From: Zootoca vivipara
Lineage: Eukaryota
Direction of reading: 5' to 3'
Length of the DNA stretch: 64,000 nt
Assembly (NCBI RefSeq): GCF_963506605.1
Contig: NC_083289.1
Span: 28,396,001 to 28,460,000 of the forward strand
Positions 21,501 to 54,000 of the stretch are shown here, piece by piece. How positions within the stretch are numbered: position 1 is the first letter of the stretch; the number at the start of each line of letters is the position of its first letter. The notes beneath the pieces are model-generated. The model did no database searches, was not told the origin of the DNA, and worked only from the letters and a program-made list of their open reading frames with translations. A program made the translations under genes and the position numbers.

Positions 21501-21838
21501 CTCACCTTGTCGGAGTCGAGGTCCGGGTCGGCCTGGCAGAGGCGGAAAAGGAAGCTTTTGGGGTCCCTGCATAGCGTCTGCCGGGTGGTGAGGAAGCAGG
21601 TACCTCCCACGTTCAGCCGGACCCATTTCCCGGGCACGCCGCCCGCGACGGGAGGGGCCGGGGGAGCGAGGCAGCCCCCGCACGACGACGACGAGGACGA
21701 CGACGAAGGCGAAGAGAAGGACGACGACGACGAACTGGAGCTGCTGCTACAGCGCCGGCAGGAGGCGGAGGGAGCCCCGGACAGGCCAAGCCCTGCCGCC
21801 GGCACCACCGGCAGCTCACAGGAGCCCTCCGCCGCCAT
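6475..21838 (-). CDS. KCTD5: KCTD5, BTB/POZ domain Cullin3 adaptor; 6 coding exons, 261 aa
   Basis: Exons 21838-21506, 15904-15796, 15339-15248, 14882-14787, 13414-13289, 6504-6475. All introns GT-AG with consistent phases. Translation WVRLNVGGT...[35 protein letters not shown].../[32 protein letters not shown]/.../ILQERGSRM* matches KCTD5, and it sits next to PDPK1 as in human. Confidence 0.96.
6925..7092 (+). mobile_element. CR1 LINE 3' end fragment
   Basis: CR1 3' motif CCTTGGAGGTTTTCAAGCAGAGG...GGACTAAATGACC...ATTCTATGA. Confidence 0.75.
9741..9799 (-). CDS. KCTD5: Candidate KCTD5 alternative cassette exon encoding [14 protein letters not shown] (coding part 9799-9755)
   Basis: Long polypyrimidine tract plus CAG acceptor. 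In frame (phase 0) with exon 5, CpGs retained, stop TAA at 9757-9755, donor ATG|GTGAGC at 9740. Confidence 0.55.
12386..12743. mobile_element. Tc1/mariner-type non-autonomous element
   Basis: TIR CC(G/A)TATTGGCCC.AATATAAG; TA flanks; related to 36137-36624. Confidence 0.75.
13289..13414 (-). CDS. KCTD5: KCTD5 exon 5
   Basis: 126 nt, [42 protein letters not shown]. Confidence 0.95.
14069..14204. mobile_element. 136-bp hAT MITE (family with CAGGCATCCCCAAACT TIR)
   Basis: Palindromic; 8-bp TSD GTTTGGAG/GTTTAGAG; sister copies at 43927, 45473 and 56792. Confidence 0.85.
14787..14882 (-). CDS. KCTD5: KCTD5 exon 4
   Basis: 96 nt, [32 protein letters not shown]. Confidence 0.95.
15248..15339 (-). 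CDS. KCTD5: KCTD5 exon 3
   Basis: 92 nt, [31 protein letters not shown]. Confidence 0.95.
15796..15904 (-). CDS. KCTD5: KCTD5 exon 2
   Basis: 109 nt, [36 protein letters not shown]. Confidence 0.95.
17170..17530 (+). mobile_element. Degraded CR1-like LINE 3' fragment
   Basis: ...TTTAAAAGGATTGGACAAATTTATGGAAGATA.GGCTACCAATGGCTACTAGC... typical of squamate CR1 ends. Confidence 0.5.
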
Positions 21839-27869: not shown

Positions 27870-27977
27870 TCATTTCGCAGTGTTCTGGTGGTATATGTGT
27901 CGCCAAACCTCATGTATCTTTTTGCACCATTTATGAGCGTTCCCACTTGGGTCCATCAGGTAGTATGTCCTGTTAGG
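27870..27977 (-). CDS. PDPK1: PDPK1 exon 14 (terminal coding exon)
   Basis: [35 protein letters not shown]. Confidence 0.94.
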   Translation of the reverse strand, partial: PNRTYYLMDPSGNAHKWCKKIHEVWRHIYHQNTAK

Positions 27978-30900
27978 CTACAAGTAAACAAAGGTTTAGT
28001 GCCTACTCATTCCTGAAGCAAGAACCTAACTAAGCTGACCAAGGCCAGCAGGCAGTGCATAGGCTTGGGCCTCCCCTCCCTCCCCTGGGGATGAAGGCCA
28101 CACAAAGCACTTTGTGCATCAGAAGTATCCCACAGTAAAAACCAGACAACGGGCAGGAGCTATTAAAAGGCAGAGGTGGCTGTGTGAGCCAACTCTGGCC
28201 TGAGAAGGTACAAGAGTCATCAGTGTGTGGAGCTGTGTCACTGGGGAGTTGCTACTTCAGGAAGTTCTAGATCCATTTTTCAAAAAAAGGGGAAGGATCC
28301 CACAGCCAATTAAAAGTACTCTGGTTCCTCAACATCTCCAGCACCTCCCAGGAAGCACTGGCAGCTGAATGGGCCCTGCTAATACCACACCTGCAAGAGC
28401 CCACAGAACGGGACCGGCTAAGCCAGAACTTGTCAGCAGGAAGGGGTCACTTACTGTGTGAACAAAGAAGGTCTTGAAGTTCTTGGCTTCCGGCCGGAGT
28501 TCCAGCGACCAAGGGATCTCTCCTTTCAGAATTTTGTTGACAGGGTCCACATAGTACAAGTGTGGCCCTTCAGTGAGCAGCAGCTGACGCCTGCGAGCAA
28601 AGAGCCCCTGCAGAGGAGGGCACAACACTTAGAGCTAAGCCGGCAGCTTCAAAGAAAGGGTCAAGAAAGGCAGGATTCTAGCACCATCACAGGATACTGC
28701 TTAGGACTCAACGCTCTTGTTATAGAGCACAAAGGGATCATCACATCTTCTGAGCAGCTAGTTTACTCTGCCTTTCTGCCTTTACCACATGCAGCACAAC
28801 CAGCTCACAGGACGAGGAAGGGGAAGTACCTATTATATTTTTTGCCTTTCCTGGAACAGTCTCCAAACCAATTTTTGGACAATTGATGAAAGGTTTTCAA
28901 AGCTCAAACTCTCTTCTGGGCAACACTCTTCTTCCCTGAGACCCTCGTTCCCTATGACAGCAGGGGAACTGTCATCATGGGAGTGGCACCTCCTTGAAGG
29001 CCCCATCCAACTCTCTCTGCCTCTTTTGCCATTTCCAGGTCTGGGAACCAACTTGTTCCTGGAGCTCACTGTACTCTACTCACTGTACCCACGACATCTG
29101 CCCAATGGGAAGATAGTCAAATATATGGTAGGCTCATCAAAACACTAGAAGGCCCCCCTCTCTCCCCGTTAGTTAGTTTGTTTTTGGGTATTAGTTACCT
29201 AATTAACCCAGGTGACCCAGGTGGCGCTGTGGGTTAAACCACAGAGTCTAGGGCTTGCTGATCAGAAGGTCGGTGGTTCGAATCCCTGCAACGGGGTGAG
29301 CTCCCGTTGCTCGGTCCCAGCTCCTGCCTACCTAGCAGTTCGAAAGCACATCAAAGTGCAAGTAGATAAATAGGGACCGCTCCGGCAGGAAGGTAAACGG
29401 CGTTTCCGTGCGCTGCTCTGGTTCGCCAGAAGCAGCTTTGTCATGCTGGCCACATGACCTGGAAGCTGTCTGCGGACAAACACCGGCTCCCTTGGCCTAT
29501 AGAGCGAGATGAGCGCCGCAACCCCAGAGTCGGACACGACTGGACCTGATGGTCAGGGGCCCCTTTACCTTTTTACCTAATTACCAACCACCAGGTACAC
29601 ATGGAAGAGCATACAAATAAAATTATGAAATGTAGAGGTCAAGGAGAACAAACAGGGTTACACGCCCCACCACAAACTACTACATTTGGATAATCTGCTT
29701 TTGGTTTCTCTTAATATCTGTTTCTTTCCCCTCCACTACTCTGCAGGTTGTACTTTAGACTTACAAGTACAATTATTTAAAGAATGAATCTGAGGCACAG
29801 GATAAGGTGACTTACCTTCCGTTTGTCAACTGGACCCATTTTCAGTATTAGATTATTTTCTACAAACTGGTGCCTGAGAAGAAAACATCACCTTGTGTTA
29901 TTTCCATCAAACCATCATTCATTGCCAAGCCATTCACTTACAGGCTTTTAGAGACAGAGTGTCAAGGAGAGGAGGAAAAGTAGCCAGCAGCCAGATGGGT
30001 GCTCCCTGCTCAGGGCATTGTCCTCAGCACGCACCTCTGGGTCAGATCCCATGGCAGAAATTGGCTGCATTTCTAAGCTCTGACCAATTCAAATGGTCCT
30101 GGTTCTCCCTTTTCTAAAGCCATTATTAGGAACACGCAGGTGAGGTGCAAGTGATGAAGCTGAACTTTATTTGTGGAGCAGGATGTTACTCAAGAGAGAG
30201 AGAGAGAGAGAGAGAGAGAGTGCAAGTGCAAGCACATGCGTGCACACACATTTGCATAAGCCACTCTATGGGGAAGAAACCCCACACCCCACAGTGCTTA
30301 CCAGGGATTTCCACCAGCCTGCTTTGCCAAGAGTAACCTTTTCTCCTTTTCAGAGAACTGGAGGTCCAGCTCAAAGGAATTGCTGTCGAGGTTGTGAATG
30401 TATTGCTCTATGTTGTTGCTGCTGCCTGAGGTTTGTGGGGTGGACGTCTCCGGGGAAGACAAGGACTGAGAAGAGGCGGAGCCAGACACTTGCAGGCAGC
30501 CAAACTGACTCAGGAGATTGTCATACTATCAAAAAAAGAAAGATAGTTTTCAGAATAAATGGGGGGAATAAATGTGGCATCTTTTCTTCTGACTAATATT
30601 TCTGCCAACGTAATATCCAAGTTGTCTTCAAGAGTAAATCCAGTAACATTAATGGGCCTAAATTAGATGTGCCAATGAATGTGACTAACAATGGATATAA
30701 CCAATGTTATATTATTTATTTATTATTCTGAATGCTCTCTTTAAGCTACTAGTACTATCATGTATTTACGCTGTATAAACATTGTAACCCCATACTTTAG
30801 GAAAGCAACACATTTCATCTGCAAGAAAACAAACGGCTTCAAACATATCATAAAATACTGTATTTTCCATGTATAAAACTATATTTCCCCCAAAAAATGT

Positions 30901-33900
30901 AAGTTTAAAATTGGGGGGGTGTGTCTTATACACAGAATGTTGCAATTATTTATTTCTTAATTTAGGCTAAAAAAAAAATCATCTTATACATGGGGGCATC
31001 TTATACACGGAAAAAATACGGTAACTGTGTGGCCATCTTTTATTTTACTCAGTACATATCTTTTGCAATCAAGGCAAAATCCCACTCATTTTCTGGCCAC
31101 TTGTTCTACTGTTAGTGATATTCCCCATTTCTTTGCTTAAGAACACTCTTGCTTCAATTCACAAATGGGACTAATTCCTTATGCTCTGTCTTACTGAGGC
31201 TTCAACACAATTTAGTGAGGACAGGACCTAGAGAGGTTTGATAATCTATAGACTGTAAAATGCTTGATCTGCTTCCACTTTTTAATAATAACCACCTCCC
31301 TTTTCCTGTTGACACTTCCAGCACATGCTTGTACCGGACTCCTAATTTCTGAATGATCAATAGTTCTGCCTTGATTGATTCAATCTATGTATCAGAAAAA
31401 TCCCCATCTCCAAATTTTAAAGCCTCTATCTCTTTCACAAATTTCACCAGTGATCCCATATTTTTAACCAACTGCAAACTAGAACATTTCCTTTTACTTG
31501 CTTTGTTCTATTTCATTATCTCCTCACAGTACATCTATGTATCACCCTTTAACCCTCCACTTGCATGCACAAATTCTGAGAGAGAGGAAGGAAGCTGGGA
31601 AGGAGCTCTGCTTTCAGCTCAGCATCTGCTCTCAGCCTCTGGTCATGTGAACTGGACAAGTGAAAGTGAGGGTGACAGAGGAGCCAATGATTAGACCAGA
31701 GCAAGAACTACAAGCCTATTTCTCTCTTGAAGGATGCAAGGGTATTGAAGAGACCTCTATTGAGCATGATAGATCAAGATGGGCACTCCTACTGTGACTG
31801 CTGAGATGGATGGAGAAGGATGTGAGGCACTCACAAGGGCAAACTGCCCTTCAGGAGTCTTTTATCTCCCCTGGCATCAGTATCAAAGCCTGCACTTACA
31901 TTTCCATAGCAATCCTCATCATCTTCTGACATTGCAGGCAAATATGCAGTGAGCTTGGGTGGCGTCTGAAGATGCAGATTCTCCCAGGTGATGGATTCGA
32001 AAAAGGGGTGGGCCTTCAAGGGCTCATATCCTCCCATTTCTTCACAGCCTAACCTCTTGGTAGCGTCTTGGACCTGGTTAAGTGAAGACACAGTTACATT
32101 TTCCCTGGAAAGACTCGGGGGGGGGGGGGTTTCCCCCTCTGGCTCCACTCCCTGTCATTTCAGATCTTGGTTACTCAGTCAGTCCACCTCTGTGGACAAT
32201 CTGTTAATATGGGACCTTTGATGTACCTAGTAGAAGTGAGACTCCAGGAAGGAGGAGGACAATTGAGATTTCTTCTCCAAGCACCCCTTCATGGTGATTC
32301 AAAAGGGGCTTTTGCAATAACCCGTGAAACAAAGGCTTGTATAGGTTTACCTGGCATAAAGCAACGGGATAGAGATCCTCTCAAGGAACTGGTCATGAAG
32401 TCAACTTGCTTTGCTCCGCTTCCTGGAGCAAGTGGGAGGCAAGTGGCCAATTAAAAGAGAAAGGAGGTGGAAGGAGACAGGCAAGAGGGAAAGGAATGCT
32501 AGCTGCTGGCCTTGAGGCTGACATCTGTATCATATGGTTCTTGTGGTGATAAAACCTTGAACACCAACTGACTGAAAAGTTCCAGCTAGTTTGGGAACAA
32601 AGCTAACAGTCTAGTTCCATGAAGAGAGGGAAAGTAGGGGGGGCCTTAGCTGGAAATTAATACCTCAACACAAGGTATAGAGGAGTATATCTGTGGGTCG
32701 GGGTGAGGCTGGGAAATGAGAGGGCAGAAAACCCCATGGGAAGGCGGTGGGGACTAAGAAACAAGGCCCTGAAGATGCTTTGTGGAAAAGCAGGAGGGAC
32801 AGGGAACAAGTCAAAGGGGCAACAATTGGGGGGGGGGCGGGACTCTGAAGCCTAGAGGGCCAGAACACCGGTTGGGTAGAACAGCAGCAATGAGTACCAC
32901 ATTTTGTTATCTGACTGGAGGCTTCTAGCATGCATTTGAAACATTTGACAATACAATTCATTTACCAAGAGCTTTTCTACGAGGTCTTTTGCCTTCGGAA
33001 AGAACTTCTCTGGGAATTCATACTCCAATTTGATTATCTTCTGGAATATGAGATATTCATTTCTGCAAAAAGGATGGGAAAAAGTATACTCACATCTATG
33101 CAAACATTTCCTGTAAGTCTACTTCAAGGTTGAAACTATACCATCCTATGGGTACACGGGCAAAAACTAACTTAGTGGGAAGTCTGGCACTGGTGTGCTT
33201 CAAAGTCTTACCCGGCTCTGAATGGTGGTAATCCTGCTACAAGCTGGTATACAATGCAGCCAAGAGCCCAGAGATCCGAACTTCATCATCAAGACAGGCA
33301 AAAGGATGAGGAGGCAAAGCAGAAGAGTTAGCACTGTGGGCATATCCAATTTCACCATCTTCTAGTTCAGGCACCCACAACAAAAGCATACAACATATTC
33401 CCTTTCAGGCAGAGCTGCAAATTCCCCTGGAGTATCAGGCTCTAATTTACTTGGAATGCCTGGTAAAGGCACCTTGAAGAAAAAGTGTTCATCCCTGGGC
33501 GTTTCCCAAGGATCTGATGCAGAAGCTGCCACTGTGCACTTTCTGAACCAGATCTATGTATTTCCTCATCTTGGATTAGGCTCCCATAGGAAGGATGGAA
33601 ACAGCAGAAGAGATACTTCAGCAAGATCCCAATAGGGCTGAGCGATATCAGCTTTTCAACATCGCAGTGTATCGCCAGCCAAACATCGCAGTTTGGTGAC
33701 ATACTGCGATGCTGGAAAAACAAGATGCATTGGCCTCTCCCTGCAAAACACTGGGTGCTGAGGCAGTTTCACCCAGACTCGTGGGTTAATACAATGCAAC
33801 TTGTTTGCACCGGGCTGGGGGCTCCTTTAACTGCTCGACTGAGGAAAGGGTAACTGCACACTCCTATGCTGAGCAGTTGAAAGATGCAGAGGGGAGGAAA

Positions 33901-36900
33901 CAGCTGTTTCGGCTCCTTGCCAATAGAGCTTGTTTCTCCCTCTCCATTGTATGAGGGCTGTATTGGGACCTAGGCCTGGGTGATATATTGATCTATTGCC
34001 CAGGACTGGTATGAGGAGCAGACCGCGACATCGGCTTCGCTCAGCGGTATATCGCTGGTGAAACTGCTCCCAAGTCCCTCTGCTAGCAGCGCCTGATGGA
34101 GGAAGGACCGGTCCTGGGCAATATATTGATATATCGCCCAGGCCTAGATCCGAATACAGCCCTTTGAAGAAGATCCCAAGCTGAATAGGTGCTTAAAAAA
34201 ATAAAAATAAATGAAATGGCCCACAAAGAGCTTTCTAATTCTCTATCTGTCTTGTTTAATGTAGTGGCAAGAGATTACAGCAAGAAAATATGATGGCAAT
34301 GCTTAGAACATCTTGTATCATGTTTTGGTGGTATGTTATGTTAAATCCAAGGGCTAATGAACTATTCATGTTACAGAAGAATAGACAAAAGCAATCCTAA
34401 GAGCCATTGTCATGTGGTTTAAAATATTTCCATGTTGATTATGCAGAAGGCACTGAGGCAGAATAATGGAGTACACCCTAATGGAAATAGACCTCACCCA
34501 TTTGCATTGAAGATCTCTCTCACAGTCATAAAACCCCTCTACAAAGGCAACGTATGTAACTCACCTTTTGCAGGCAGATTTCTCTGTTAACAACTCTGGA
34601 GACACATACTGCGCTGTCCCAACAAAGGAGTTCGCTCGTGCTGAAGAACCCAAGATGCAAGTAAGCATTTAATCATTAAAAATGTTCTTTCAAGGTCCTC
34701 ATGAAGGCTTGGATGCGTTCATTTGAAAACAATGCTTTCATTTTTGTTGTGCAATTCAAATTTCATCAGCTTTCATTAACTATATTTGTAGACATCCAAT
34801 GTTACATAATGACTATTGTTTTTCAAGTGCTCCCCGCCCCTTCAACTCTAAGCATTACTAAGCAGTATTTCACCCCATGGGCACCCCATTATCTCCTGAT
34901 TTCAGCCGCCCCATTTTAGTAACTCCCCAGGATTCCTCTCTGATGTCATCTCCTACAGTATAGCCATTTTACCTTTACTCAGTAAAAAACCATCATAAAC
35001 CCCATTGAGACATAGCATCGGATACTGTGGTCAGTTTTAAGAAATTTGAAACTGCAGAAGGTTGTTTTAGTCATTCACAGGTTGAGAAATTGCACCCACC
35101 TCGCTTGCTGTCTGCAGACAATACTTTTGCTGTCCCAAAGTCTGTAATCTGAATGTGCATGTCTCCGCTGAGCAAAATGTTCTCTGGCTTCAGGTCCCTG
35201 CAAAAGGCACAGTTGGGAATAAGCCATGCAGGCACAGAGTCATGCCCTCACCAACTATTTGTGTCCCCTGGGGAAATCCCAACTTCTCAATGTAATGCCC
35301 AAACCATGCAAAGCTGATTCTCCCCCAGGCTTCTAAAGTAACAGATTCCTACCTGCTCCTCTGCCTGGCATTGGGAGCTGCTTCCCAAATGATTAGGAGG
35401 GGACTGGGCAGCAGGGGGACATGTAGCAAATCTGAATGTTAGACCATGCTGAGTTCTTCTCTTCTGCCTTCTACTGCAGGCAGACAAAGAATACGCAAGA
35501 ACTACATTTACTTTGCTAGAGACCTGGCAGAAAGGGACGTCCCTCTCCTCTACAAAAAAAACCAAGGTGAAAGGCAACAGAGGGAGGGAAAGAGAGATAT
35601 TTCAACTGGCCAAAATCCCCATCTAGTGCTGGATACTTTGTACTCCAAGGCAGCCAATGCCTTGTGCCAAATTAACTAGGCTGGTGTCACCACAGGTGAG
35701 GAATGCAGGAAAGCCAGGAAGTCTCAACAAAGGTACCTAATACACTGCTTGCTTTGGAAACTTTTGAGTTTTGAGCCACCAGGAGGGCAACAAACGGTAA
35801 CTATGACAACAGCAACAAGAACCAAGAATAGATGGATTTGAATTCATTACATTACCTGTGAATGATTCCCTTTCCGTGCAAGTACTCTAATGCAGACACA
35901 ATTTCAGCAGTATAAAACCTAGTACATGTCTCATCAAATGAGCCAATCTTCCGGATGTATTTTAGAAGCTCTCCATTTTTGGCGTAGCTAAGACCAAAAT
36001 CTGAATACTAAGTTAAAGATAATTTATACTGTGAATCTCTAGATCCCAAAACACAAAGGCAGATAATCTGGGGCAATGTTAGAATGGATAGGTGGTGATG
36101 TGCTTGGAAGGCTGGACTCTGCACACAGCCAATTTACCGTATTGGCCCGAATATAAGTTGCACTTTCCCCCCAATTTCAGACCCTGAAAAGTTAAAGTGC
36201 AGCTTATATTGGTGACTTTTTACCGCATGCTGCTGAAAGCAGCAGGGGAGTGCTTGCTTGGCGGGGGGGGGGGGGGGCGGCAGAGCCTCCCAGCTAGTTG
36301 GGAGGCCAACCAGCTACGCAGCATGCGCACCACCAACCAACAGGGAGGCGGGCACTCCACGCCACCCCACCAAGCAGCTAGGGAGCGTGCACAGCCTCCC
36401 AGCTGGTTGCTGGTGCGCACACTCCCTAGTTGGTTAGCCTGTGCACGCTCTCTCCCCCCCCCCCGCCAAGCAGCTAGGGTGCTGGCGCTTAGCTCCAATT
36501 GTGCTCCGTGCCTGCCTCCTGGCACTACTGCCCCGAACGGGGGGTGGCCAGCACTAGCTTGGTGGCCGCACCTGCAAATAAACCTTGAATTTTAAGTGTG
36601 CAGCTTATATTCAGGCCAATACGGTACAATGGTTAACTTAGTCTCCAACCATTTTGGGACAAGAGGCAGATTTGGCGATAAAAGAAACTTGTGGACACCA
36701 CAAAATACACATTCCACAGAAGAAAAAACTGATGGTATTCAGAAACAGCCCCATACACCTAAAAGGCAAAACACAGACACCTCGAGACAAATAAAACACA
36801 GTAAAAACAACAACAAACCTCCTCCCACCACAAAAACTAGGCAATCTTATCAAACAAAAAAGATGTAAATATCAACTAAAAAATAGAACGTGGGAGAGGG

Positions 36901-39900
36901 AGGCTGAGTGGGGCGCCTTAAGGCACTGTCATACCCATGGGGGGCCCAAGATTCGTCCTCTGGCAGGTTTACAAGATTTAAGATTTTTCACATTTGTATC
37001 CTGCCTAAGAATTCTGGTACAACTATTTTGAAAACATCACTGGGTTAGCAAATGAAGTAACATTGTTCTTTTTTTTCACACACATTATCCCAACAAATAT
37101 TACCATGAAACATTTCCATCCAGAAGGATACAGAGCTTCTCATCATCCTGAAAGGTGAAGTAGAGATTGACAAAGAAAGGGTGATCCAGGCAAGACATTA
37201 TATCTTTCTCCCTATTCACGCACGGCACCTTGCCCTCTTTTATGATGTGGCGCTTCTCCAGAATTTTAACTTTTGAAAAGACAAATAAGTTACAACACAC
37301 TTGGGAAATACACAGTGAAGCTGCAAACTCATCTGCACTGCTTGACTATGAAGCTACACTTAGAGAGCAGCTTCCCACAACAGCAGCAGCAGCAGGCGTA
37401 ACCTAGACTTCCTTTGGCTCCATTATGAGGACAGGACATCATCCATCTAAAATCCACACCCTAATGAAGAAAGGGTTACTCACTGGCATATTCTCTGGAG
37501 GTAGACAATTCTCTGGCCAAGAAGACCTGTTAAATGGGAAATAAGAGCTGCCTTATGTTTTGCACGCAACTAAGATCCCGCAAAAGATCTCCAACCTACT
37601 GAGGGGGTGAGTGGAAAAGGGGAATTCCGCTCATTGGAGCCCAGGGCCCCAAGGGACCATTGCTCTATCCATGCCAGTTACATCGGCCAGTCTCATACAC
37701 ATTCCCAGCACTTCCTAAAGACAACATGGAGGGACTGTTCTGGCGGTTCTCCTGACTTCCTAGGGCAGGTTTTTTTTCCTGGGGGGTGGTGGAGTAGGAG
37801 TCACTGCACTGGCCTTTGCTAGAGTGCTTGGTTAGTTGAATCTGGTCCTATATGTCCAGAAGGGAAGAGGCAAACCATCATTTTGTAAGAAGTCCTAAAA
37901 TTCAGGAATCCTAAGCATCACAGGGGTGGAGAGACAAAACCTACCAATGGAACATGTGCACAACAGCAGGGGCTCAATGAGGACAGACAGAGGTGGTAAC
38001 CTCATCACACTAAAAGTCTGGTGTGAGACTGCAGGAGCCACAAGAGGACAAAAAGCATCATAACAGCCAACAGCTGTGAACATTATTTCTCTGACCTCCT
38101 GCAGAGCCAAGTAGAACCTTCCTCTGGGCAAGCTGGTGGGCAAAGTGCTTTACAGTGGAACCTCGGTTTACGAACACCTCCGTTTACAAACGCTGTGGAC
38201 CTGGAAGTATTTACATCTGGGTTCCGCGGCGTCAGATGCGCAGAAGCGATCTGCGCAGCGTGTGCGCAAAAACGCTCTATCGGCGCTTCGCGCACGTGCA
38301 GAAACGTACCTTCGACGAGCAAACACCTCCGCGAGCGAACGTCTCCGCAGAACGGATTGCATTCGCAAATCGAGGTACCACTGTACCTAGAGAATGCTAA
38401 GTGGGGAGGGGAGAGGGGGGAGAACTGTCTGAATGATACACAAAGGCCAAATGGCTGGCTTCTGCCATGACACTCCCAGAACTCACAGTTGCAGTAGATA
38501 CTCACTGTTGAGAAAGACCCTTCACCCAGAATCTTGACAAAGTTAAAGTCCTCTGGGCGTTTCTTTCGAGGCTGTGGAGGTTGCTGCAAGGATTTTTCAC
38601 TTCCCCTTGGCTCAGCCGTTGTGCCCTCCATGCTCAGTCCCTGCCTGCTGCCACAGGGAGCAGCAACAGGTGAAGGGCTGGGATCTGCCTGGTTCCTCAC
38701 CATTGATGGTGATGGGCAGGAACATAAAACCACGCTGGACTGGATTGGAACAGCATCATACTGAAGGAAAGAAAAAGAATGTACATGATGTGGCAGCTTG
38801 CAGTCTATTAGCCACACATCCCCGTATACAAGTTGGAAATATGCAAAAGTTCAGGAGTACTGCTCCCCACAAATAAGGGGGGGGCTACAGGTACCTACTG
38901 GTGATCATGGCAGCTATGCTACATTGCCGTGATCCCATAGATCAAGCATGTACAAAACACACAAAAATGGCCACCTCATGACTTGAATTTCAAGAGTCAA
39001 GAGTTGCCACCTTACTACTTCACAAATGATTACTATTAATTAAGACACCCTTCACCCTAAGGTCCCAGCATATACTTGAATCTATAAAAGCCAAAGTCTT
39101 TCAGATCACAGCACGTCTGCAGAGATCTGAAGGCTAAAGGAATCAAACCCACAAAGTTCGGTAGCTGCCTGAAGAACTTGGCAAGTCAGGCATCCAATTA
39201 GCTAGAGAGAAACTGAAACAGTCTAAAACCATTTGGTGTTTTAATATTTGACACGCAAACCAGTGAAAAGAGAAGCTTACTCAAATGAAATAATAATTCT
39301 GCAATTCATAGCTTAAAAATATTCTTACATAACCAGACACTCAAGATGGGACCTTCTGCATGCAAAGCAGGTGCACTACCTACTAACTTACAATTCCTCC
39401 ACTATTTTATTACAGTGTGCTCGTATGACCTCTGGTCATTCTGTCATCTTACAGTAGAATAGTAGCCTCCAAACTACATTCTAATAAGAATTATGAGAAA
39501 CAGTAAATGTTTTTGACTGGAAGCTTAGCATATTGAAGACTGCTATAGTGAATGTATGGAATTGTGTTTCACTGATTGCTTGGTGCCTGTTTTTTCATTG
39601 AAACACAGGAAACTACTGATACCAAGTCAGGCTAATTGGTCCATCTAATTCAGTATTGTTTACATTGAGAGGTATTTCAAATATCCAAAGTCAAGCAGCT
39701 TCCCCATTTATATCAGGAAGCTTTTCATTATCAACAATTTCCTTTCAGACTTTCCTTTAGACTCTTAACTTTAAGGAAATTAAATGAATGATTAATTCTT
39801 TCCTTCCTTCAGTGCTGCTATTTCTTCAGGTGAGAGAGGTTTATAAGATGTCAAGGCTCCTCAGAAAACCCAAGTTTCCACATCAGACTGGCTGAAACAT

Positions 39901-42669
39901 TCCTATCCATTTGACATCGCCATTTCAATTTCCTCTGAACAGCTTATCAAAGTCTGCCATCTAGGTCTGAATCCAGTTTCAGAGTAAAAATAGTGTTCCA
40001 GATTGAATAAATGAGCTAACTTATAATGGGCCATGGCTTTAATGGCTGCCTTATTATGTCCCACTTGCTCTTGCCAATGCCAAATAAAAGTACCAAGGCC
40101 AGGTATGTGTGGGTTTCAAAGTGTTATAAAAATCATGCTGACACACAGTGAATAGAAATACTATTGCCTAGATGGCAGTTCCTCAACTTATGTAGCTTAT
40201 TACTTCTAACATGATTTTAAAAATGAACACACCCTTGTTACACTTACCCAGCAACTGAAATTTTATGCTGGTTTCAACCCCCATCTGAATTTTGAGTCCA
40301 GCCCATGTTTTTCATTAAGTGTCAAATGCTATATATCAGCAACAGACCACAGATAAAAAGCATCAATATGGCATGAAGCTGCTTTTAATTAACTACTGTT
40401 GCTTTTATTAATCACTTCTGTTTTAACTGTTTTGTTTAGTTTTAAGAGGTTTAATGTGATTTTAATGGGATGATTATTTTATTATGCTTTATCTTTAGAA
40501 CAATTGTGCTCCAAGAGAAAATATACACAGCAGATAATTAAAAATCAACATAATAAAGAATCTCCAGCTCTCTCAGGAGTCACAGCATGTGGTTGACTTG
40601 CCCAGGCAATGAGTTCTGTAGCTGGATAGATGGTATATAATTCAGCAGCTGCTGCCACTGCATACATCCAGCCTTGAGAAGTCTAGGATCAACAGTGAAA
40701 TGCAAGTTTGTTTTGTTGCAGAATGATAACATTTTGGCAAGTGCAGTATTTTATGCTCACAGCAAAGAGCAGGCAAACTGCCCCCTGATAATTAATTGCA
40801 AATACATTGCCATGCCCTGGCAATATACAATGGAGCTTCTTCTTCAGTATGGAACTTAACAGTTTGTGAACAGGGCCTACAAATTTCAAGGCAGAGCAAT
40901 CCCTGGACTCAGAATACCCACCATGTGGGATGCTAAAATCCAAGAAGCTAAGACACCCTTCCTCAACCTAGTGCCCTTCTGATGCATTGGACTATGATTT
41001 CAGCACAGCCATGCTGGGTGCAGCTAATAGGAATTGTAATAAAAATATGTGGAGGGTATCAGGCTCAGGAAGTTTGATCTAGTATGGTGTTACATCTGCC
41101 TGTGTCTGGGGAACACAGGATAAGCAAGTGTACACTCACTGCACACAATACATGATGCTAGGCAGATGCACACACAAACTGCACAAGAAATCTGGAATCA
41201 TTTTCACTTTTAAGTCATTCTACAGTACTAAGAAAAGTCAAGTAAGCTGATGAAAGTGCAAACGACACAGGCACACCTGTGACACCTTGCTACACACCTG
41301 TTTGAAGTCTGAAGGTGGCATAAGGTCACACAAGTCTGCAGAAAAGGCCATAAGTGTTATAGAACTTGTAGTTTGCATGTATAAAAATGCCAGGCTCTGT
41401 TCCATTCAGACTGAACTACTGTTGCCCAGCTCACGGAATTATTGGTTGGATGAGTCATTGATTTGATTCAATACAAGGCGGAGTCTTCTATGCCTCCTAT
41501 GGCATATGTACTCATGGCTGGCATTTGCATTTTTAATCCTGCTGATAGCAAGGGGTCATATGAAAACAACATCTACACTACCTCAAACACAAGTGACATA
41601 ATGTGAGGACTGGGTAGCTGCCTGTCCTGTGCCAGTTTTCACCAGCTGATATGTATTTGTAAGTAAGCGGGAATAGGTTGGAGTTGGTGCCACAGAACAA
41701 TGGGCACTTTTTACTAAATGACACATGAACAGCCATGACAGTGGCCAACTGTGTTAATGAAACTACTGGGAAGAACAGCAATTACTCAAGAACTTTAAAT
41801 CAGGATTTGAAACGAATTTGAAGTAAAACAGGCTGAAAACGAATGTCTCTGACAACAAGCAGAAAGAAATAAAGAATTCGCTCTACAGCAGCACCTCCTG
41901 AGGGCTGAGCGTATTAGATCTCACCTCAGCTGTGAATCAACTGGGCATCCTTTGCATGACATCTGCCTTACAGAATCACTCCTTTAATATATAAGAAGTT
42001 TCTTTGACCACTGGAAGATTCAGCTTTTCAATCGCTCAGGACTAGCACGGCCCCCAAAACGGTGGGCCAAGGCGACACACTGCTCTACCGCTAAAGCTAA
42101 GCCCGGAATGTGGCCGAAATCGCAGCCTCCGTATCGCCCGCGACAGTCGGAAGCCCCAACACCCAATGCACACCGGAAGGCGAGCTGCCCTCTCCGTTGC
42201 CGGCGGGGGAAGGAGGTGAAATTCCGAGGGCAAATGGGCGCGCCCCTCCCCGCCTAAGTGGGGCATTCACTTCACGGGGAACCCCGCGCCGCCACGCAAA
42301 ACAAGGGAGGCTCTAACCGAGGCCTGCCTGCCTGCCTGCCAGTCCAGGTAAGATGACAGGAGGCCAAACACCAGGGGGGAGCTCAGGCCCGGCCGGCTCC
42401 TCCGCAGCTTTCGCTTCCGCGCTGTAGCCTGGGCCCCGCCCCTCTCCGGCCAGGATCCCAGGCTGACCCCGAGGCGCCTGCAGAGCCCCTGGCCGAGGAG
42501 ATCCAGGGACGGGGAGCGGCGAACCCCACCTTCCCTCCGCCAGAGGTTCCGCTCGCGCCGCGGCCTCCCGGAAGGCAGCGCAGGCCAAGCGGCCGCTCCT
42601 CTCCTCCCCTCGCCCCTTCCCCGCCGACTCCCGCGCGGAGCTTACCAGGGGGCTGCCGGTGCTGGCCAT
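27870..42669 (-). CDS. PDPK1: PDPK1 (PDK1), 3-phosphoinositide-dependent protein kinase 1; 14 coding exons, 553 aa
   Basis: Exons 42669-42646, 38760-38506, 37526-37484, 37269-37132, 36000-35856, 35197-35100, 34640-34565, 33280-33212, 33062-32966, 32073-31900, 30525-30302, 29873-29816, 28607-28455, 27977-27870; sum 1662 nt, open frame. Kinase motifs GEGSFS, AIK, HRDLKPEN, DFG, ANSFVGT, plus the PH domain. Confidence 0.97.
28455..28607 (-). CDS. PDPK1: PDPK1 exon 13
   Basis: 153 nt, [25 protein letters not shown]...FFVHT. Confidence 0.95.
29206..29572 (+). mobile_element. Sauria-type tRNA-derived SINE, full length
   Basis: A/B boxes (GTGGCGCTGTGG, GGTTCGAATCC), ACCTTT tail, TSD TTACCTAATTA (29195-29205 / 29573-29583). 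Confidence 0.9.
29816..29873 (-). CDS. PDPK1: PDPK1 exon 12
   Basis: 58 nt, [19 protein letters not shown]. Confidence 0.95.
30302..30525 (-). CDS. PDPK1: PDPK1 exon 11
   Basis: 224 nt, [14 protein letters not shown]...KQAGGNPW. Confidence 0.95.
30858..31021. mobile_element. Mariner-type MITE
   Basis: TIR C(T/C)GTATTTTCC.TGTATAA; TA flanks; sister copy 54433-54598. Confidence 0.7.
31900..32073 (-). CDS. PDPK1: PDPK1 exon 10
   Basis: 174 nt, [27 protein letters not shown]...DEDCYGN. Confidence 0.95.
32966..33062 (-). CDS. PDPK1: PDPK1 exon 9
   Basis: 97 nt, [32 protein letters not shown]. Confidence 0.95.
33212..33280 (-). CDS. PDPK1: PDPK1 exon 8
   Basis: 69 nt, [24 protein letters not shown]. 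Confidence 0.94.
33633..34146. mobile_element. hAT-like non-autonomous element with internal palindrome
   Basis: Ends TAGGGCTGAGCGATAT / ATATCGCCCAGGCCTA; 8-bp TSD-like GATCCCAA/GATCCGAA. Confidence 0.65.
34565..34640 (-). CDS. PDPK1: PDPK1 exon 7
   Basis: 76 nt, [25 protein letters not shown]. Confidence 0.95.
35100..35197 (-). CDS. PDPK1: PDPK1 exon 6
   Basis: 98 nt, [32 protein letters not shown]. Confidence 0.95.
35856..36000 (-). CDS. PDPK1: PDPK1 exon 5
   Basis: 145 nt, [49 protein letters not shown]. Confidence 0.95.
36001..37131 (-). other. U12-type (minor spliceosome) GT-AG intron 4 of PDPK1
   Basis: 5' splice site GTATCCTT. Branch point TCTTTAAC lies ~10 nt upstream of the AG, with no polypyrimidine tract. 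Confidence 0.9.
36137..36624. mobile_element. Tc1/mariner-type non-autonomous element inside the PDPK1 U12 intron
   Basis: TIR CCGTATTGGCC(C/T)GAATATAAG; TA TSD; internal inverted sub-repeats. Confidence 0.82.
37132..37269 (-). CDS. PDPK1: PDPK1 exon 4
   Basis: 138 nt, [46 protein letters not shown]; followed by U12 donor GTATCCTT. Confidence 0.94.
37484..37526 (-). CDS. PDPK1: PDPK1 exon 3
   Basis: 43 nt, [14 protein letters not shown]. Confidence 0.93.
38153..38383. mobile_element. Tigger/pogo-like MITE, CpG-rich (young)
   Basis: TIR CAGTGG(A/T)ACCTCG; TA TSD. Confidence 0.82.
38506..38760 (-). CDS. PDPK1: PDPK1 exon 2
   Basis: [22 protein letters not shown]...[20 protein letters not shown]. 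Confidence 0.95.
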
Positions 42670-48052: not shown

Positions 48053-51000
48053 CTGGAAGAGAGCAGAAAATAGCCTCAGGTTCCCCACCTGGAATGGCTT
48101 TCCATGCCGGAAGCCAGCATGAGAATGATCCCGCTACCCCCTCGGCTACTGCTGGAGTCAGTGTGCACCTCTCGGGCTACCTGCTACTTGCAGGATGTGT
48201 GTGTATGTTCATCCCTAGATACCTGGAGAACCTGGTTGGTTGAGATTAGTTTCTTTTATTTACATGATTTACGTGCTGCTTCAGATTTCCAAAACTACAT
48301 TTCGGAAACTACAACTAATGCAGAATGCAGCAGCTAGACTGGTGACTGGGAGCGACCGCTGGGACCATACGCACTGGTCCTGAAATACCTACATTGGCTC
48401 CCAGTACGTTTCCAAACAAAATTCAAAGTGTTGGTGCTGACCTTTAAAGCTCTAAGCGGCCTTGGCCCTCTATACCCGAAGGAGTGTCTCCACTCCCATT
48501 GTTCAGCCTAGACACTGAAATCTAGCGCTGAGGGCCTTGGGCGGTTCCCTCACTGCAAGAAGCGAGGTTATAGGGAACTAGGAAAGGCTTTCTCAGTAGT
48601 GGCCTCCACCCTGTGGAACACCCTCCCATCAGATGTCAAGGAGAAAAGTAACTATACAACCTTTAGAAGGCAGCCCTGCATAGGGAAGTTTTTAATGTTT
48701 AATGTTTTTATATATGCTGGAAGCTACTCAGATTGGCTGGGGCAACCCAGTCAGATGGGTGGGGTACAAATGTTGTTGTTGTTGTTGTTGTTTACAACCT
48801 GCCTCCAAGTGAGGCGGCCAGGTCCTGCCTAGGCCACAAAGCTGCCAGCCTGACACCCACATCTCCCCACCACTACCAGAGAGGGACCAGGAAGACTCCC
48901 AGGCGGCAATACCAAAACCTTGCCCAGAAAGCCATCTCTGTAGCTGAAACCCTCTTCTCTTCTGAAAGGATGGGAGGCCCACTTCTCCATGGCAGCCTGA
49001 GAATTACACCCCGCCCTCCCCAGCTTGGTACTCAGCCATCATCAGGTTCTATGTGGCTGCTCCCGAGATCATGGTTGTTACCTTGAAATCCCCACTGTGT
49101 GAGAGATAAAGGGGCTGGAAATAAGCTGCTGGGCTGGGGATGTTTGCGCTGCAATGGCCCTTGGATCTGTGGAAAGAGAGAAGCGCAGCCCATGGGAAAA
49201 CACCCCTTCTCTTCCTCCAGCCTCCCACAGTCCATCCTCCCTGGGTGCTGGTGGTGTACAAATAATTGCCTCCTCCTCCTCCTGCAGAAGCATTGAGCGC
49301 CCCTATTCCACCTCCTTGGTGCATGTCAACCCCAGTGAGGAAAAGAGAAAGCACAGGCAACCTCCTGCCCACCTGCTGGGCCAATTTGGAGCTGGAGAGT
49401 GGTCTGGTTGTATGCAAACGCCCTCGAAGGGCTGGTGTTCACACAACTGAAGGAAGTACCTCCATGCACACAAAAGGCTGAGCATCAGCCATACCCAATC
49501 TGAGAGCCAGTTCCCACTTCAGGGCAGGGCAGAAGGAGATAGATATACTGCAGTCTGTGTGCCTTTTATGTGACAGGCACTCCTTTCCTGCTGTGGGAAC
49601 CACAAAAGCCTCCCTTTCCTGTGTCTCTGTTTTCTGCGCTTGTGCATGCACTAGGCACATTGTGTGGGTGCGAGGGAGTGCAACTCAGGGTAGCAAAGCC
49701 CTGGGCCAGAGACCCCAACTCCTTCTCTGACCTCATGTGATGAGCAAAACACAAATACTGGTGCCTGGGCCCTCCTGGCTGCCTGTATGCAACATCTCCA
49801 GGTGAAATGAATGAATGAGTGAGTGATATACCTCCAGAAGATTGTGAGTACCAGGAGCAGGAACAGTAGGATGCCCAGGCAGAGAAAGAGCGGGTTGAAC
49901 ACATGCTTCAGGAGGTGGGATTCCCAATGCTGCTGCCGCTCGTTGCCTGTGGATGGAATCATCAGCACATCAGTATAGTGGAGGATTGCCCTCGGTTTGC
50001 CAAAAAAAGGAGCTGGTGACCGAAGGAATGAGCACAATTGCCTTTTTGTGGGTTTCACTTTGGAACGGCAAACAAGCAGACACGCATTTCACCAAGAGCT
50101 TATGCAGCCTGTGTGGTGTGTGGGATATATTCAGCTCCAGTAAAATACTAAATAAATCTTTGGGGGATGAAACTGGTAGCCGCAGAGAGTCTGTGTCTTG
50201 CCTAGAAAGGCAGATTTTAAAAACCTGTCCCTTAAGAAGCTTACGTGGCTAGTTCCGAGGAACACCAAAGACGACCTTTCCCCCCAAGAGACGTGACCCT
50301 GTGTTTTTTTTAATGCGGGGGGGGGGCCTTTGTTGGTACTTTGTTTTGTGAGTTGTAACTTGCCTTTGAGCATAAGAAAACAAAACCTATAACACAAATG
50401 AGTGCAAGCAAGAGAAGTGGAATTTTTGTGTGTGTGGACCTGGGTGTGTGGCACATCAAATGCAGCACAGCTTTGTACCAGACCTGGGGGAACTTTCCAC
50501 TTGGTGGTGGCACTCCACGGACTCCACTGGCTTCTGTAGTGCATATTCACATCTGGAGTTTTGCAGCGAATTCTTGCCACATACTCTATGCCAGACTCGA
50601 ACTCGAAGCCCTCAATTTCCACCCATGTTTCTTTGTTGACCCAGACCTTGTTCTGTGCCTGCTGTGAAGGATCGGAGCACAAGCAATGTTTCCATTAGAC
50701 AAAATTCAGTTGAGCAGGCCCTGTAAGCCATAGCAAATACCAGAAGGAGATGGGGGCTTCCGGGTGGAGACCTTGCCTTGTGCCGCTAACAGCTTGTTCA
50801 GACTCAACGTTTGCTTGTGCTTTCACCCAACCCCATTTTCTCAGTTGTAGATATCACTGCTGCTCAGCCATTTGCCATCCACGTCAGTGTGCAAACCTTG
50901 ACTGGACGTCTCTGTGCTGTGTGTCAGCCAAGACCCCTCATGTCTCCTATCCTCCAGGGCACCGTGATCCTTGAGAAGGGAAGAGGTGGTGATACACCTT

Positions 51001-54000
51001 CCGCTCTCAGCCCATTTCAGTGGCCTCTTACCTCCCAGGGTACTTCTGTGGTCTTGAATGCCAGTTCCCATTGCCAGTCGTCCAGAAAAATGTCTTCATA
51101 GGCCTCTGGCCTCCTCCACTGCATCCAACACTTGCTGGAACTCATGTTGCTCTGCAGGTCAAACGGTGGCTCACATTTGACTGGAAAGAGATGGAGAGCG
51201 GAGAGGAGGTGCTGCCGAGAGCCAAGAAGACCCCACCCACCCAAAAGCAACACTGTGTGTGTGTGCGTGCGCGCGCTCCTGGGACATCCTCCAGGGAGCT
51301 GCTGCTGCTCAGGGAGAACTCAGCAGGGCTCACCAGGATGTCCAGGGCTGGAAAAAGCTCAGAAAGAGGTGGAGGGGAGGGAAAAGGCTGGGGGCAAACA
51401 GTGTGTCCCCAGCAGCTGGAGTACACATGGACCCTTGCCTCCAACCATGGCCACTCTCCCGTCCTGGAGAAGTTTGAGTCAGTCCCTCCACACGCAAGAA
51501 GACTCACTGTGCAGCCTGGGCTCATACATCGCAAAGACTATGAGTCCATTTCCGGAGGAGGAGGAGGCATACAAGGAGACGCTGTACTCATCGTTCTCTG
51601 TGAACTCGCCCTCTTCACTATTCACAGAGCAGCTGAACAGGTCCAGGGCCTCCTCAGAGAGATGGCAGATGAGGTCACTGTAGAGACCGAGGAGGCTGCA
51701 AAACAGAGGAGAGGGGGAAGAAGGTCCTTCCTTGGGGTGGCCGCTGGGCATGAAGCATGGCTGGGGGGAATGTGGCCAGGCTGGGGGAATGTGGCCAGGC
51801 TGGGGAAATGTGGCCGGCCGCCATGAGAGGAAGGAGAGAATGCCTCTGAGCATATGGAGAGTAACTCCTATCACAACACTCATTTACCTGGACTTCCTGA
51901 CTGTGTGTCCAAAAGGGACAAAAGGAGGGAGGGACAGGGATTTGTTTCCAGGCAACCTGAAAATCTAAATGTGCACTTTGGAGAAATTAAGGATTGCCCA
52001 GAGGTGGAGAGGGTGAAGAGGCCATTTTGCAAAGGTGGTTGAGAGCCCACTCGCCCATCTGGGAGGAGTGGGAAGGGTCTACCCACCAGGGAAGGGACTC
52101 GAACAGATCCCTGGGGGCTGGGATGGGCGTGATATTGGGCAGAGCAGCCTTTGACTCTGTGGTTGTGCCTAGCACCATGGGCATTTTCTCCCAAGAGGGT
52201 ATACCCTGCTGTGGCTGTTGCTTTTTGCCCCTTGTGCTCCTGCCAAAGTCCTGGGAAGTCTGCTCTCTGGCTCCTGAAACCCATCAATCACCAACATCCC
52301 CTGGACTCTGCAGGCACCTCCTTTCCCCCCCACAGCTTGCAACCATGAGAGATACACTCCCCAGGAACCCAGAACCACCCTGCAAGAAACCTGGCTCCTG
52401 CCAGCTCCCAGTCACCCAGCAGGGAACAGGGCTTGGTGTCCCTGCCCTTACTCAGAGAAATTGAGGTGGAAGGGTCCCTCTCCCAGGATCTCCTCACGGC
52501 GGTGCCATGTGCAATTTACCCTGCGGCCCTGCAGCCCATAATTGTTCAGACATCGCACACTGTTGTTGGAGAGCCCTGCCAGGAGACAGAGAAAAGGGGA
52601 GAAGGGGTTCAGGGCACCGTTAGACGCCAGCTGCACCCTCATCAGTCCAGCACCACTCCCGCCCTCCTTCCTGAAATTTGGCTTGCGTTTATTCCAAATG
52701 TGCCATTAGGAGGCACTGGGAAGAAGAGGTTGCAGATGCTTTGGGGACAAGAGCATAAGAACACAAAGAGAGCCCTGCAGCTGGATGAAACCAGTGGTTC
52801 ATCTAGTTCAGCCTCTGGTTCTCACAGTGGCCAACTAGATGCTCCAAAGGGAAGAAGCCCATAAGCAGCCGGCATTAAGAAGCATTCCTGCCTTGAGCAG
52901 AAGATGAAAGGAGCAATCTGCCCCTCTGGGTTGCTGGGAGGTTTCTGGAGGAGAGACCTGATTTGGGGATTTCAGTGGACAAGCTGCTATGCACTTGTGT
53001 GTTCTTCTGCAACCTCCTGCTTCTCACCTGTCTCTGAGCATGCCCTGTCCACTGCACTGGATGAAGGAAAAGCCCCTTCTCAGAGAGAGGGTGTAATCTA
53101 GTACAGGGCTAGTGCTCAGCAGCGCTTTCTGATATTTTGAATTACTTTATTAAATCATCTTGATGAATTTGTTTTGTCGTATGCTACTGTGTTTGATATT
53201 ACAGTCAAACCTTGGTTCCTGAATGCCTCTGTTATCGTACGTTTCGGCTCCCGAATGCTGAAACTTGGAAGTAACTGATCCGGTTTTGAATGATTTTCGG
53301 AAGCCAAACAGCTCCTGGGGAGGTTTTTTATTTTTATTTTCATTTTTCTCCATTGACTTTGCTGACCGCCCTTTGATCCTCATTTTGGAAGTTGAACTGG
53401 CTTCCAGAATGGATTACGTTCGACAACAGAGGTTTGACCATACAGTGATTGCATTGTTCGTTGTTTCTTAACGCTACTGAGATTATTGTGAGTCGCTTTG
53501 AGCTCAACACGTGTGGTTGGAAAGGCAGAATACAAATATTACATCAAAAATCTAAACAAATGTAGAAAGGGGACTCTGTAAAGAAAACAGCAAAGACCCT
53601 AGGGACCTTCCACTTCCTCAAAGGGGCCAAAGCCGGGAAAGAAGCCCAGAGATGGGTCTGGATATGTTCACAATAGGGTGAACAGCAGCATTTTAATCTG
53701 GAAAATGGCCAGGTGGAGAGTTAAAGACACTGCCCCCTCTTTCAACAGTGCTTTTCTGGACAAAATGGAACCCCTGCCCCCCACCCCAACTACTTTTAAG
53801 TTAAACCCTAACACATCCACACGCATTGAGACCAGGAGATGTCCTGAGAGACCTTGTGGTGCCTTTTGAGCTCCGCTCTGGTCACAGGTCCTCAGACGTA
53901 CATCCTATTCTCTGTAGGTCCATTTGGTGGCCAAGAACCGCTCCCCTCCCCACCTACCTGTTTGCTGTATTTCCTCAGCCGCAAAGAGAGGGAAGAGGAG

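What the first reader, a model, noticed from the sequence alone, without database searches (positions are those of the whole stretch)
37132..38545. Concentrated divergence of the PDK1 N-lobe / alphaC / PIF-pocket region in an otherwise intact, conserved kinase
Seen: exon 4 reads [27 protein letters not shown], and exons 2-3 read [10 protein letters not shown] and VFLARELS. From memory, human PDK1 reads KENKVPYVTRERDVMSRLDHPFFVKLY, EDFKFGKILG and VVLARELA. That gives about 11 changes (human numbering K83N, G85V, V97F, A103S, N122G, Y126C, T128N, R131K, V133I, R136C, K144N), while the next exon (48 aa) and the activation loop match human. Established: R131 is part of the phosphate-binding site next to the PIF pocket used to dock S6K/SGK/RSK/PKC, and Y126/R129 on alphaC contact pS241. 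The hydrophobic PIF residues (K115, I118, I119, V124, V127, L155) are retained here. Inference: lineage-specific remodelling of PDK1 allostery or substrate docking in the insulin/TOR pathway, possibly with new redox-sensitive cysteines.
Basis: partly seen in the sequence, partly recalled or inferred. Interest (0 to 1): 0.7.

Follow-up and report, generated by a model that had tools for sequence, protein, structure and literature searches.

The report
Lizard PDK1 with rewired control lobe
Wall, sand and common lizards share nine amino-acid changes in the control lobe of PDK1, an essential insulin-signalling kinase whose lobe barely changes in other land vertebrates; the docking pocket's core is kept, so the changes likely retune how docking switches the enzyme on, which is untested.

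Summary
The window holds a single-copy, 14-exon PDPK1 that translates exactly to the Zootoca vivipara protein. All 11 differences from human are there, in independent DNA and in relatives' spliced transcripts. Nine (K83N, G85V, V97F, N122G, Y126C, T128N, R131K, R136C, K144N) map to one branch, the stem of Zootoca, Podarcis and Lacerta; A103S and V133I are common vertebrate variants. That branch has 9 N-lobe versus 9 other changes; other amniote branches have 14 versus 131 (p=1e-4, post hoc). Y126C arose three times (lacertids, skinks, coelacanth) and R131K three times, each with or after Y126C. The catalytic residues, the PIF-pocket core and the client docking motifs I found are intact. The changes sit on the rim of the pocket and its alphaC relay. 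Best reading: retuned docking-to-catalysis coupling, fixed in one episode. Positive selection is not shown: no outgroup DNA was available, and a rough domain-wide dN/dS is below 1. Not found in the papers searched.

The parts
27870..42669 (-). PDPK1 coding span, 14 exons, 553 aa (kinase + linker + PH domain)
   Evidence: Exon chain translates exactly to P0001; Pfam Pkinase and PH_3
42646..42669 (-). Exon 1 with start codon, inside a CpG island
   Evidence: spliced loose ends at 38761
38506..38760 (-). Exon 2: weakly constrained N-terminus plus beta1; K83N at 38542-38544 (AAC), G85V at 38536-38538 (GTC)
37484..37526 (-). Exon 3: beta2-beta3; V97F at 37521-37523 (TTC), A103S at 37503-37505 (common variant)
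37132..37269 (-). Exon 4: alphaB, alphaC, beta4; N122G 37232-37234, Y126C 37220-37222, T128N 37214-37216, R131K 37205-37207, V133I 37199-37201 (common variant), R136C 37190-37192, K144N 37166-37168
35856..36000 (-). Exon 5, identical in protein to human (beta5, hinge, alphaD-alphaE)
35100..35197 (-). Exon 6: catalytic loop and DFG; lacertid-stem N214S (35167-35169) and Q236R (35101-35103)
34565..34640 (-). Exon 7: activation-loop phosphosite S241 and APE-equivalent motif, unchanged
30302..30525 (-). Exon 11: linker with NYD motif and the linker's own hydrophobic motif (M386L, shared with Rhineura and geckos); start of PH domain with lacertid-stem D418N and E433K
   Evidence: motif defined in PMC8986801 (passages)
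27870..27977 (-). Exon 14: end of PH domain with lacertid-stem R546I and the stop codon

Best explanation
This is the single, spliced PDK1 gene of a lacertid lizard, in which nine residues on the regulatory N-lobe changed on one ancestral branch while the catalytic residues and docking-pocket core stayed fixed; the changes likely retune, rather than abolish, the coupling between motif docking and kinase activation. Shown: the changes, their branch, their clustering, the kept core, and the recurrence of Y126C with R131K. Inferred: Y126C removes the hydroxyl of the alphaC relay (Y126-T226) and the ring proposed to stack on the linker's F383. K144N removes a charge whose mutation lowers PIFtide binding. 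N122G loosens the alphaB-alphaC loop. G85V and V97F add hydrophobic bulk on beta1/beta2. K83N, R136C and K144N take the lobe's net charge from +3 to 0. R131K, T128N and V133I are states common in distant PDK1s and would act as tolerated or compensating followers. Predicted outcome: weaker binding of, or weaker activation by, hydrophobic motifs (clients' and PDK1's own linker), shifting the balance between docking-dependent clients (S6K, SGK, RSK) and AKT. Fixation probably needed some selection, as a few drivers plus compensation.
For: Branch: 9 unambiguous N-lobe changes on the lacertid stem, at most 3 on any other amniote branch. 9:9 versus 14:131, Fisher p=1e-4; binomial 1.6e-5, 8e-4 when I multiply by 48 branches. 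ML stem length 0.163 in the N-lobe versus 0.034 elsewhere; next amniote branch 0.041. The lobe changed as fast as the weakly constrained N-terminus of the same exon (9 of 80 versus 6 of 65). Six of the new residues plus C136 occur in no non-lacertid record among 354-373 scored. In 107 distant PDK1-like kinases C126 occurs 1, G122 1, V85 2 and C136 0 times, while K115, L155, T148 and Q150 are well conserved there and kept here. Y126, R131 and K144 are three of five kinase residues named as linker contacts in a simulation of autoinhibited PDK1, which also cites K144E/A as lowering PIFtide binding (PMC12101721 section 12). 4 of 18 stem changes hit that model's 26 interface residues versus 5 of 148 on other amniote branches (p about 0.01, post hoc). 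R131 and Y126 are the two ends of the described alphaC relay (PMC6327997 section 5). All 3 R131K origins lie on or below a Y126C branch (p 0.005-0.02, post hoc); Lerista C126/R131 versus Tiliqua C126/K131 gives the order in skinks. Constraint persists in living lacertids: 0 N-lobe differences among 3 genera, against about 12 expected for one lacertid pair if neutral.
Against: No codon-level test was possible (no outgroup DNA). A rough estimate, using the 0.061 intron distance and recalled divergence times, puts N-lobe dN/dS on the stem near 0.4-0.6, below 1. With free window choice the clustering p is 0.003-0.006, or 0.13-0.28 after 48 branches, and the gene was picked from a genome scan. The stem is also about three times faster than Rhineura outside the lobe (0.034 versus 0.011). 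The linker-contact list is one simulation cluster, not a structure, and the experimental paper has the linker motif binding in trans (PMC8986801, passages). The linker partners D368, D371, D377 and F383 did not change. One unnamed divergent fragment (P0273) and 52 of 107 distant kinases carry K131 with Y126, so K131 does not need C126. Conservation of the nine new residues themselves is weakly tested (P(0)=0.25). No functional data.
Confidence: 0.47

Rival explanations
1. Transient relaxation plus compensatory drift: one mildly destabilising change was fixed, compensating changes followed, and the enzyme works as before.
For: Rough domain-wide dN/dS below 1 (inference and recalled dates). K131, N128 and I133 are common in distant PDK1s (71, 34 and 21 of 107). 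R131K is reported as tolerated. The predicted fold is unchanged (TM 0.97-0.98 to human PDK1). The stem is generally fast.
Against: The excess is confined to one normally conserved lobe. Four new residues are nearly absent among distant homologues. N122G needs two base changes at a site with Asn in 365 of 373 records. The lobe is invariant again in living lacertids.
Confidence: 0.3
2. Escape from an antagonist: a pathogen protein or dietary toxin that bound the N-lobe surface drove the changes, with normal signalling preserved.
For: A burst of radical changes with loss of three positive charges and a kept catalytic and docking core fits this pattern. Client docking motifs are unchanged.
Against: No antagonist was identified or searched for. 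There is no continuing turnover among three genera. Y126 is a relay residue rather than a plain surface site.
Confidence: 0.12
3. New redox or lipidation switch: C126 and C136 were gained as sensor cysteines.
For: Two new cysteines on alphaC; C126 arose three times in vertebrates.
Against: They are ten residues apart on one helix. Skinks and coelacanth have only C126. It leaves seven other changes unexplained.
Confidence: 0.07
4. Artefact or non-functional cause: assembly error, a hidden canonical paralogue, or a local mutation or gene-conversion hotspot.
For: The changes fall within 1.4 kb. The assembly has gaps elsewhere, and the genome search scored 78 of 429 candidates.
Against: Identical in four protein records from three genera. 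Zero differences in independent DNA, and spliced transcripts in relatives. Only one locus matches exon 4, and every match above 62% identity to Rhineura PDK1 lies at this locus. The weakly constrained part of exon 2 shows no comparable excess: 6 changes, versus Rhineura 3 and anole stem 11. GC3 is like the rest of the gene, 0.56 versus 0.50 and 0.59.
Confidence: 0.04

Closest known systems
Vertebrate PDK1/PDPK1 (human structures 1H1W, 4RQV, 4RRV)
   Same: Kinase-linker-PH layout; K111, E130, HRD, DFG, S241; PIF core K115, I118, I119, V124, V127, L155, F157; phosphate site K76, T148, Q150; predicted fold TM 0.97-0.98; neighbour KCTD5.
   Different: Nine N-lobe residues changed on one branch, seven of them seen in no other scored vertebrate-type record; N-lobe net charge 0 versus +3 in Rhineura.
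Skink (Tiliqua, Lerista) and coelacanth PDK1
   Same: Y126C in all three; R131K in Tiliqua and Latimeria.
   Different: They lack K83N, G85V, V97F, N122G, T128N, R136C and K144N; independent origins by parsimony on a recalled species tree.
Laboratory PDK1 mutants Y126C, R131K, K144A/E
   Same: The same positions. Y126C is listed among mutations affecting activity or modulator response (PMC12006859 section 14); R131K tolerated (PMC6327997); K144A/E lower PIFtide binding (PMC12101721).
   Different: Here they occur together, naturally, in the only copy found of an essential gene. I saw only secondary statements; the primary papers were not held, and the direction of the Y126C effect was not given.
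Rapid evolution of the insulin/TOR network in reptiles (McGaugh et al. 2015; title seen only in a reference list)
   Same: Reptile lineage, same pathway.
   Different: From recall, that work stresses hormones and receptors with a conserved intracellular core; this is a core kinase. The paper was not held, so whether it flags PDPK1 in lacertids is unchecked.

Membership tests
PDK1/PDPK1 orthologue | AGC kinase domain followed by a linker and a C-terminal PH domain | tested here: met
   Pfam Pkinase 81-328 and PH_3 446-546; best PDB matches are PDK1
PDK1/PDPK1 orthologue | Intact catalytic motifs and S241 activation-loop site | tested here: met
   K111, E130, HRD, DFG and S241 are not among the differences from human
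PDK1/PDPK1 orthologue | PIF-pocket hydrophobic core and phosphate site | tested here: met
   K115, I118, I119, V124, V127, L155, F157, K76, T148, Q150 kept; R131 is Lys. Sequence only; binding not measured
PDK1/PDPK1 orthologue | Single copy, conserved neighbourhood, spliced transcript | tested here: met
   One locus found; KCTD5 downstream; splice joints in reads
PDK1/PDPK1 orthologue | Phosphorylates AGC kinase activation loops in a docking- or PIP3-dependent way | not testable with these tools
   Needs kinase assays
Episodic positive selection on a protein surface | Excess amino-acid change on one branch and one region | tested here: met
   9:9 versus 14:131, p=1e-4; ML 0.163 versus 0.034; post hoc
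Episodic positive selection on a protein surface | A site class with dN/dS above 1 on the branch | not testable with these tools
   No non-lacertid DNA available; rough domain-wide ratio is below 1
Episodic positive selection on a protein surface | New states conserved afterwards | tested here: inconclusive
   Lobe as a whole constrained (0 versus about 12 expected); the nine codons alone P(0)=0.25
Relaxed duplicate or pseudogene | A second canonical copy, or frame or splice damage | tested here: not met
   No second copy found; intact frame and splice sites
Kinase-substrate co-evolution | Changed hydrophobic motifs in client kinases | tested here: not met
   PKN2 and SGK1 motifs match human chains; AKT-, RSK-, PKC-, SGK- and S6K2-like motifs look canonical against recalled motifs; the S6K1 motif exon was not found beyond an assembly gap

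The most novel reading that the evidence does not exclude
Lacertid lizards carry a naturally selected allosteric variant of PDK1. The Y126-R131 relay that turns motif docking into catalysis, and the contacts for its own linker, were rebuilt, shifting output between AKT and S6K/SGK/RSK. Skinks and the coelacanth took the same first steps (Y126C, then R131K), revealing a repeatable evolutionary path for retuning the insulin/TOR master kinase.
Probability: 0.3. Interest if true: 0.75.

Novelty: new variant of a known kind. Interest (0 to 1): 0.5.

Why it matters
PDK1 is essential and its N-lobe is nearly invariant in amniotes: 14 changes over all other amniote branches sampled, against 9 on this one. 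How the PIF pocket, the linker and the PH domain control PDK1 is still debated, and the pocket is a drug target. A viable vertebrate carrying Y126C, R131K and K144N together in the only copy found is a ready natural experiment on which contacts matter. Lerista (C126/R131), Tiliqua (C126/K131) and Rhineura (ancestral) supply intermediates. If function is unchanged, the result still shows these residues can be compensated. If it is changed, a core node of insulin/TOR signalling was retuned in a major lizard radiation.

Tried and rejected
Second PDPK1 copy: none found. Intermediate states in other lacertids: the short-protein search gave 6 hits, none with lacertid residues beyond K131 in P0273, so the timing along the stem is unresolved; no teiid, Gallotia, Eremiadini, agamid, varanid or tuatara sequence appeared among the listed records. 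First structure model (22 close sequences) failed, pLDDT 32; the second (88 sequences, pLDDT 82) gives fold and secondary structure only, no contacts. No complex prediction was sent, since a pass would follow from solved PDK1-peptide structures. S6K1 motif loss: the exon is missing from 40 kb searched, but a 200-N gap lies about 850 bases after the previous exon, so this is not evidence. The run search listed no indexed holder on record as RNA; raw RNA runs were laid instead. Papers not held: McGaugh 2015, Rettenmaier 2014, Engel 2006, Sadowsky 2011, Schulze 2016. The ML script stopped with an error after printing branch lengths and two of three coupling estimates; its list of recurrent substitutions was not produced. 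One search failed and was rerun. Earlier findings of this scan: nothing relevant.

Full report
What is there. The stretch 37132-38545 lies in exons 2-4 of PDPK1 on the minus strand. Fourteen exons from 42669 to 27870, all with AG/GT splice sites, translate exactly to P0001, the Zootoca vivipara protein XP_034987388. The window is G000:C14:28396001-28460000. The activation segment is not identical to human: P232A, E233D and Q236R.

Is it real? Contigs of run X3, from another sample and study than the possible source, cover 36900-38175 and 38274-38800 with no other letter. Raw RNA reads of organism B and contigs guessed to be RNA from B and C join exons 2-3-4-5 and carry exon 4 with one synonymous difference. 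All 8 exonic differences I could read in the two tables are synonymous; 9 and 61 rows were not shown, so this is not a full count. Organism A's own RNA joins exons 2-3 (5 reads) but hardly touches exon 4. The same N-lobe is in Podarcis (P0121, P0123) and Lacerta agilis (P0122). Exon 4 matches one place in the genome (1 of 9 scored candidates). With the Rhineura protein, every match above 62% identity lies at this locus (76 matches, 78 of 429 candidates scored).

Which changes are special? Among 397 retrieved vertebrate-type records, 354 could be scored for exons 2-3 and 373 for exon 4; these include isoforms and are not species counts. N83, V85, F97, G122, N128, C136 and N144 occur only in the 4 lacertid records. 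C126 occurs in 10 (lacertids, Tiliqua, Lerista, Latimeria, one unnamed) and K131 in 9 (lacertids, Tiliqua, Latimeria, one unnamed divergent fragment). S103 (38) and I133 (34) are common. Searches see only cluster representatives, and at most 15 members per cluster were listed, so many squamates are unsampled.

Branch test. I aligned 35 proteins and used 31 on a recalled species tree, dropping Liasis, Xenopus, Nothobranchius and platypus for poor gene models. Parsimony puts nine unambiguous N-lobe changes (83, 85, 97, 122, 126, 128, 131, 136, 144) on the branch from the Rhineura split to Lacerta+Podarcis+Zootoca; no other amniote branch has more than three. That branch has 9 N-lobe and 9 other changes, other amniote branches 14 and 131 (Fisher p=1e-4; within the kinase domain 9:4 versus 14:39, p=0.007). 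With window position and width free, p=0.003-0.006, or 0.13-0.28 after 48 branches. ML lengths agree: 0.163 in the lobe, 0.034 elsewhere, next amniote branch 0.041, Rhineura 0 and 0.011. The weakly constrained residues 9-73 in the same exon 2 took 6 stem changes (Rhineura 3, anole stem 11) and GC3 is ordinary, which argues against a local mutation hotspot. In living lacertids the lobe is constrained: no difference among three genera, against about 12 expected from a 0.061 mostly intronic distance between organisms A and C (five contig pieces). None of this is a dN/dS test. Using recalled dates (stem about 100 million years, crown about 30-35), neutral expectation is roughly 17-25 changes in 190 non-synonymous sites against at least 10 seen, a ratio near 0.4-0.6: several times the rest of the protein but below 1.

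Where the changes sit. A model from an 88-sequence alignment (pLDDT 82) matches human PDK1 at TM 0.97-0.98; such models are insensitive to point changes, so this only places them. In human numbering 83 and 85 are on beta1, 97 on beta2, 122 in the alphaB-alphaC loop, 126-136 on alphaC, and 144 just before beta4. The pocket core and K76, T148, Q150, R129, E130 and K111 are kept. In 107 of 148 distant representatives that passed my filters (coverage, K111, E130, identity above 45%, SFVGT motif), K131 is the majority (71) and N128 the commonest state (34), while C126 (1), G122 (1), V85 (2) and C136 (0) are rare. The lobe's net charge falls from +3 in Rhineura to 0.

What the literature says about these sites. 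A review describes PIFtide D16 binding R131, moving alphaC, and R129, Y126 and E130 passing the signal to S241, T226 and K111; it also reports that R131K, unlike R131A/M, leaves compound activation unaffected (PMC6327997, section 5 and passages). A simulation of autoinhibited PDK1 has the linker in the pocket through F383-I118, F383-Y126, K76-D377, R131-D371 and K144-D368, and cites K144E/A as lowering PIFtide binding (PMC12101721, section 12 and passages). Experiments show the linker motif F383-M386 promotes autophosphorylation, modelled in trans (PMC8986801, passages). Y126C is listed as an activity-affecting mutant without direction (PMC12006859, section 14). PMC7614687 (passages) does not mention these residues. 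Four of 18 stem changes (126, 131, 144, 546) hit the simulation's 26 interface residues, against 5 of 148 on other amniote branches, two of which are the skink parallels; within the lobe 3 of 9, p=0.04; outside it no enrichment, 1 of 9. This is post hoc and rests on one model.

Parallel change. Y126C arose on the lacertid stem, the skink stem and in Latimeria; R131K on the lacertid stem, in Tiliqua and in Latimeria. All three R131K events are on or below a Y126C branch, which covers 17-22% of tree length (p=0.005-0.01; without lacertids 0.014-0.019). Lerista has C126 with R131, so in skinks the cysteine came first. Against strict dependence, 52 of 107 distant kinases have Y126 with K131.

Partners. 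Twenty Pkinase_C matches and three pattern searches recovered client tails. The PKN2 motif equals the human chain and the SGK1 motif matches too. AKT-, RSK-, PKC-, SGK- and S6K2-like motifs look canonical against recalled motifs. The S6K1 motif exon was not found, with an assembly gap just after the preceding exon. No co-change in clients was seen.

Reading. The enzyme is an ordinary, working PDK1 orthologue by every sequence test. What is unusual is a one-branch rebuild of the rim and relay of its docking pocket. I think it most likely (0.47) that coupling between docking and catalysis was retuned, with a few selected changes and compensating followers. Compensated drift with unchanged function is the main rival (0.3).

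Novelty. Searches for PDPK1 with lacertid and positive selection (0 papers), with lizard/reptile/insulin/selection (1 unrelated; passages read), with genus names (none of 40 listed of 1,126 mention PDPK1), with McGaugh/amniotes (1 of 25 listed of 42 mentions it once, an anole microRNA paper), lacertid with PI3K selection (1 anole paper) and with branch-site/skink/coelacanth (none of 25 listed of 66) found no report; apart from the tortoise paper these were seen as listings only. McGaugh 2015 and the supplements of lacertid genome papers were not seen and may list the gene. Verdict: real, a new variant of a known kinase, with mechanism and selection unproven; interest 0.5.

Noticed in passing
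window 49082-51181 and 60265-60357, minus strand: Exons of a type I cytokine receptor upstream of PDPK1 (WSPWS motif; best PDB match interleukin-9 receptor, E=0.002). A second match near 60.3 kb suggests a tandem copy.
   Followed up: partly
window 13256-21628, minus strand: KCTD5 exons downstream of PDPK1; many public gene models fuse the two genes.
   Followed up: partly
window 38150-38390: High-copy interspersed repeat in PDPK1 intron 2; very high contig depth, and partly skipped in a contig of organism C.
   Followed up: no
window about 37380-37395: Short CAG run in intron 3, three units longer in organism C.
   Followed up: no
L025:1455-1610 (G000:C8 about 85016600-85016760): Intron-less fragment resembling two joined S6K1 exons, probably a processed retrocopy. 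The parent gene on C15 has a 200-N gap after the first of these exons and its motif exon was not found.
   Followed up: partly
proteins P0125 and P0127: Anolis sagrei has two annotated PDPK1 proteins on different contigs, one with extra N-lobe changes; possibly sex-chromosome copies.
   Followed up: no
window 30302-30525 (exon 11): The linker's own hydrophobic motif has Leu for Met386 in lacertids, Rhineura and geckos; it predates the N-lobe burst.
   Followed up: partly
window 36000, run X22: Five reads leave exon 5, follow the end of exon 4 for about ten letters and then run on unlike it; a library chimera or a rare alternative 5' end.
   Followed up: no
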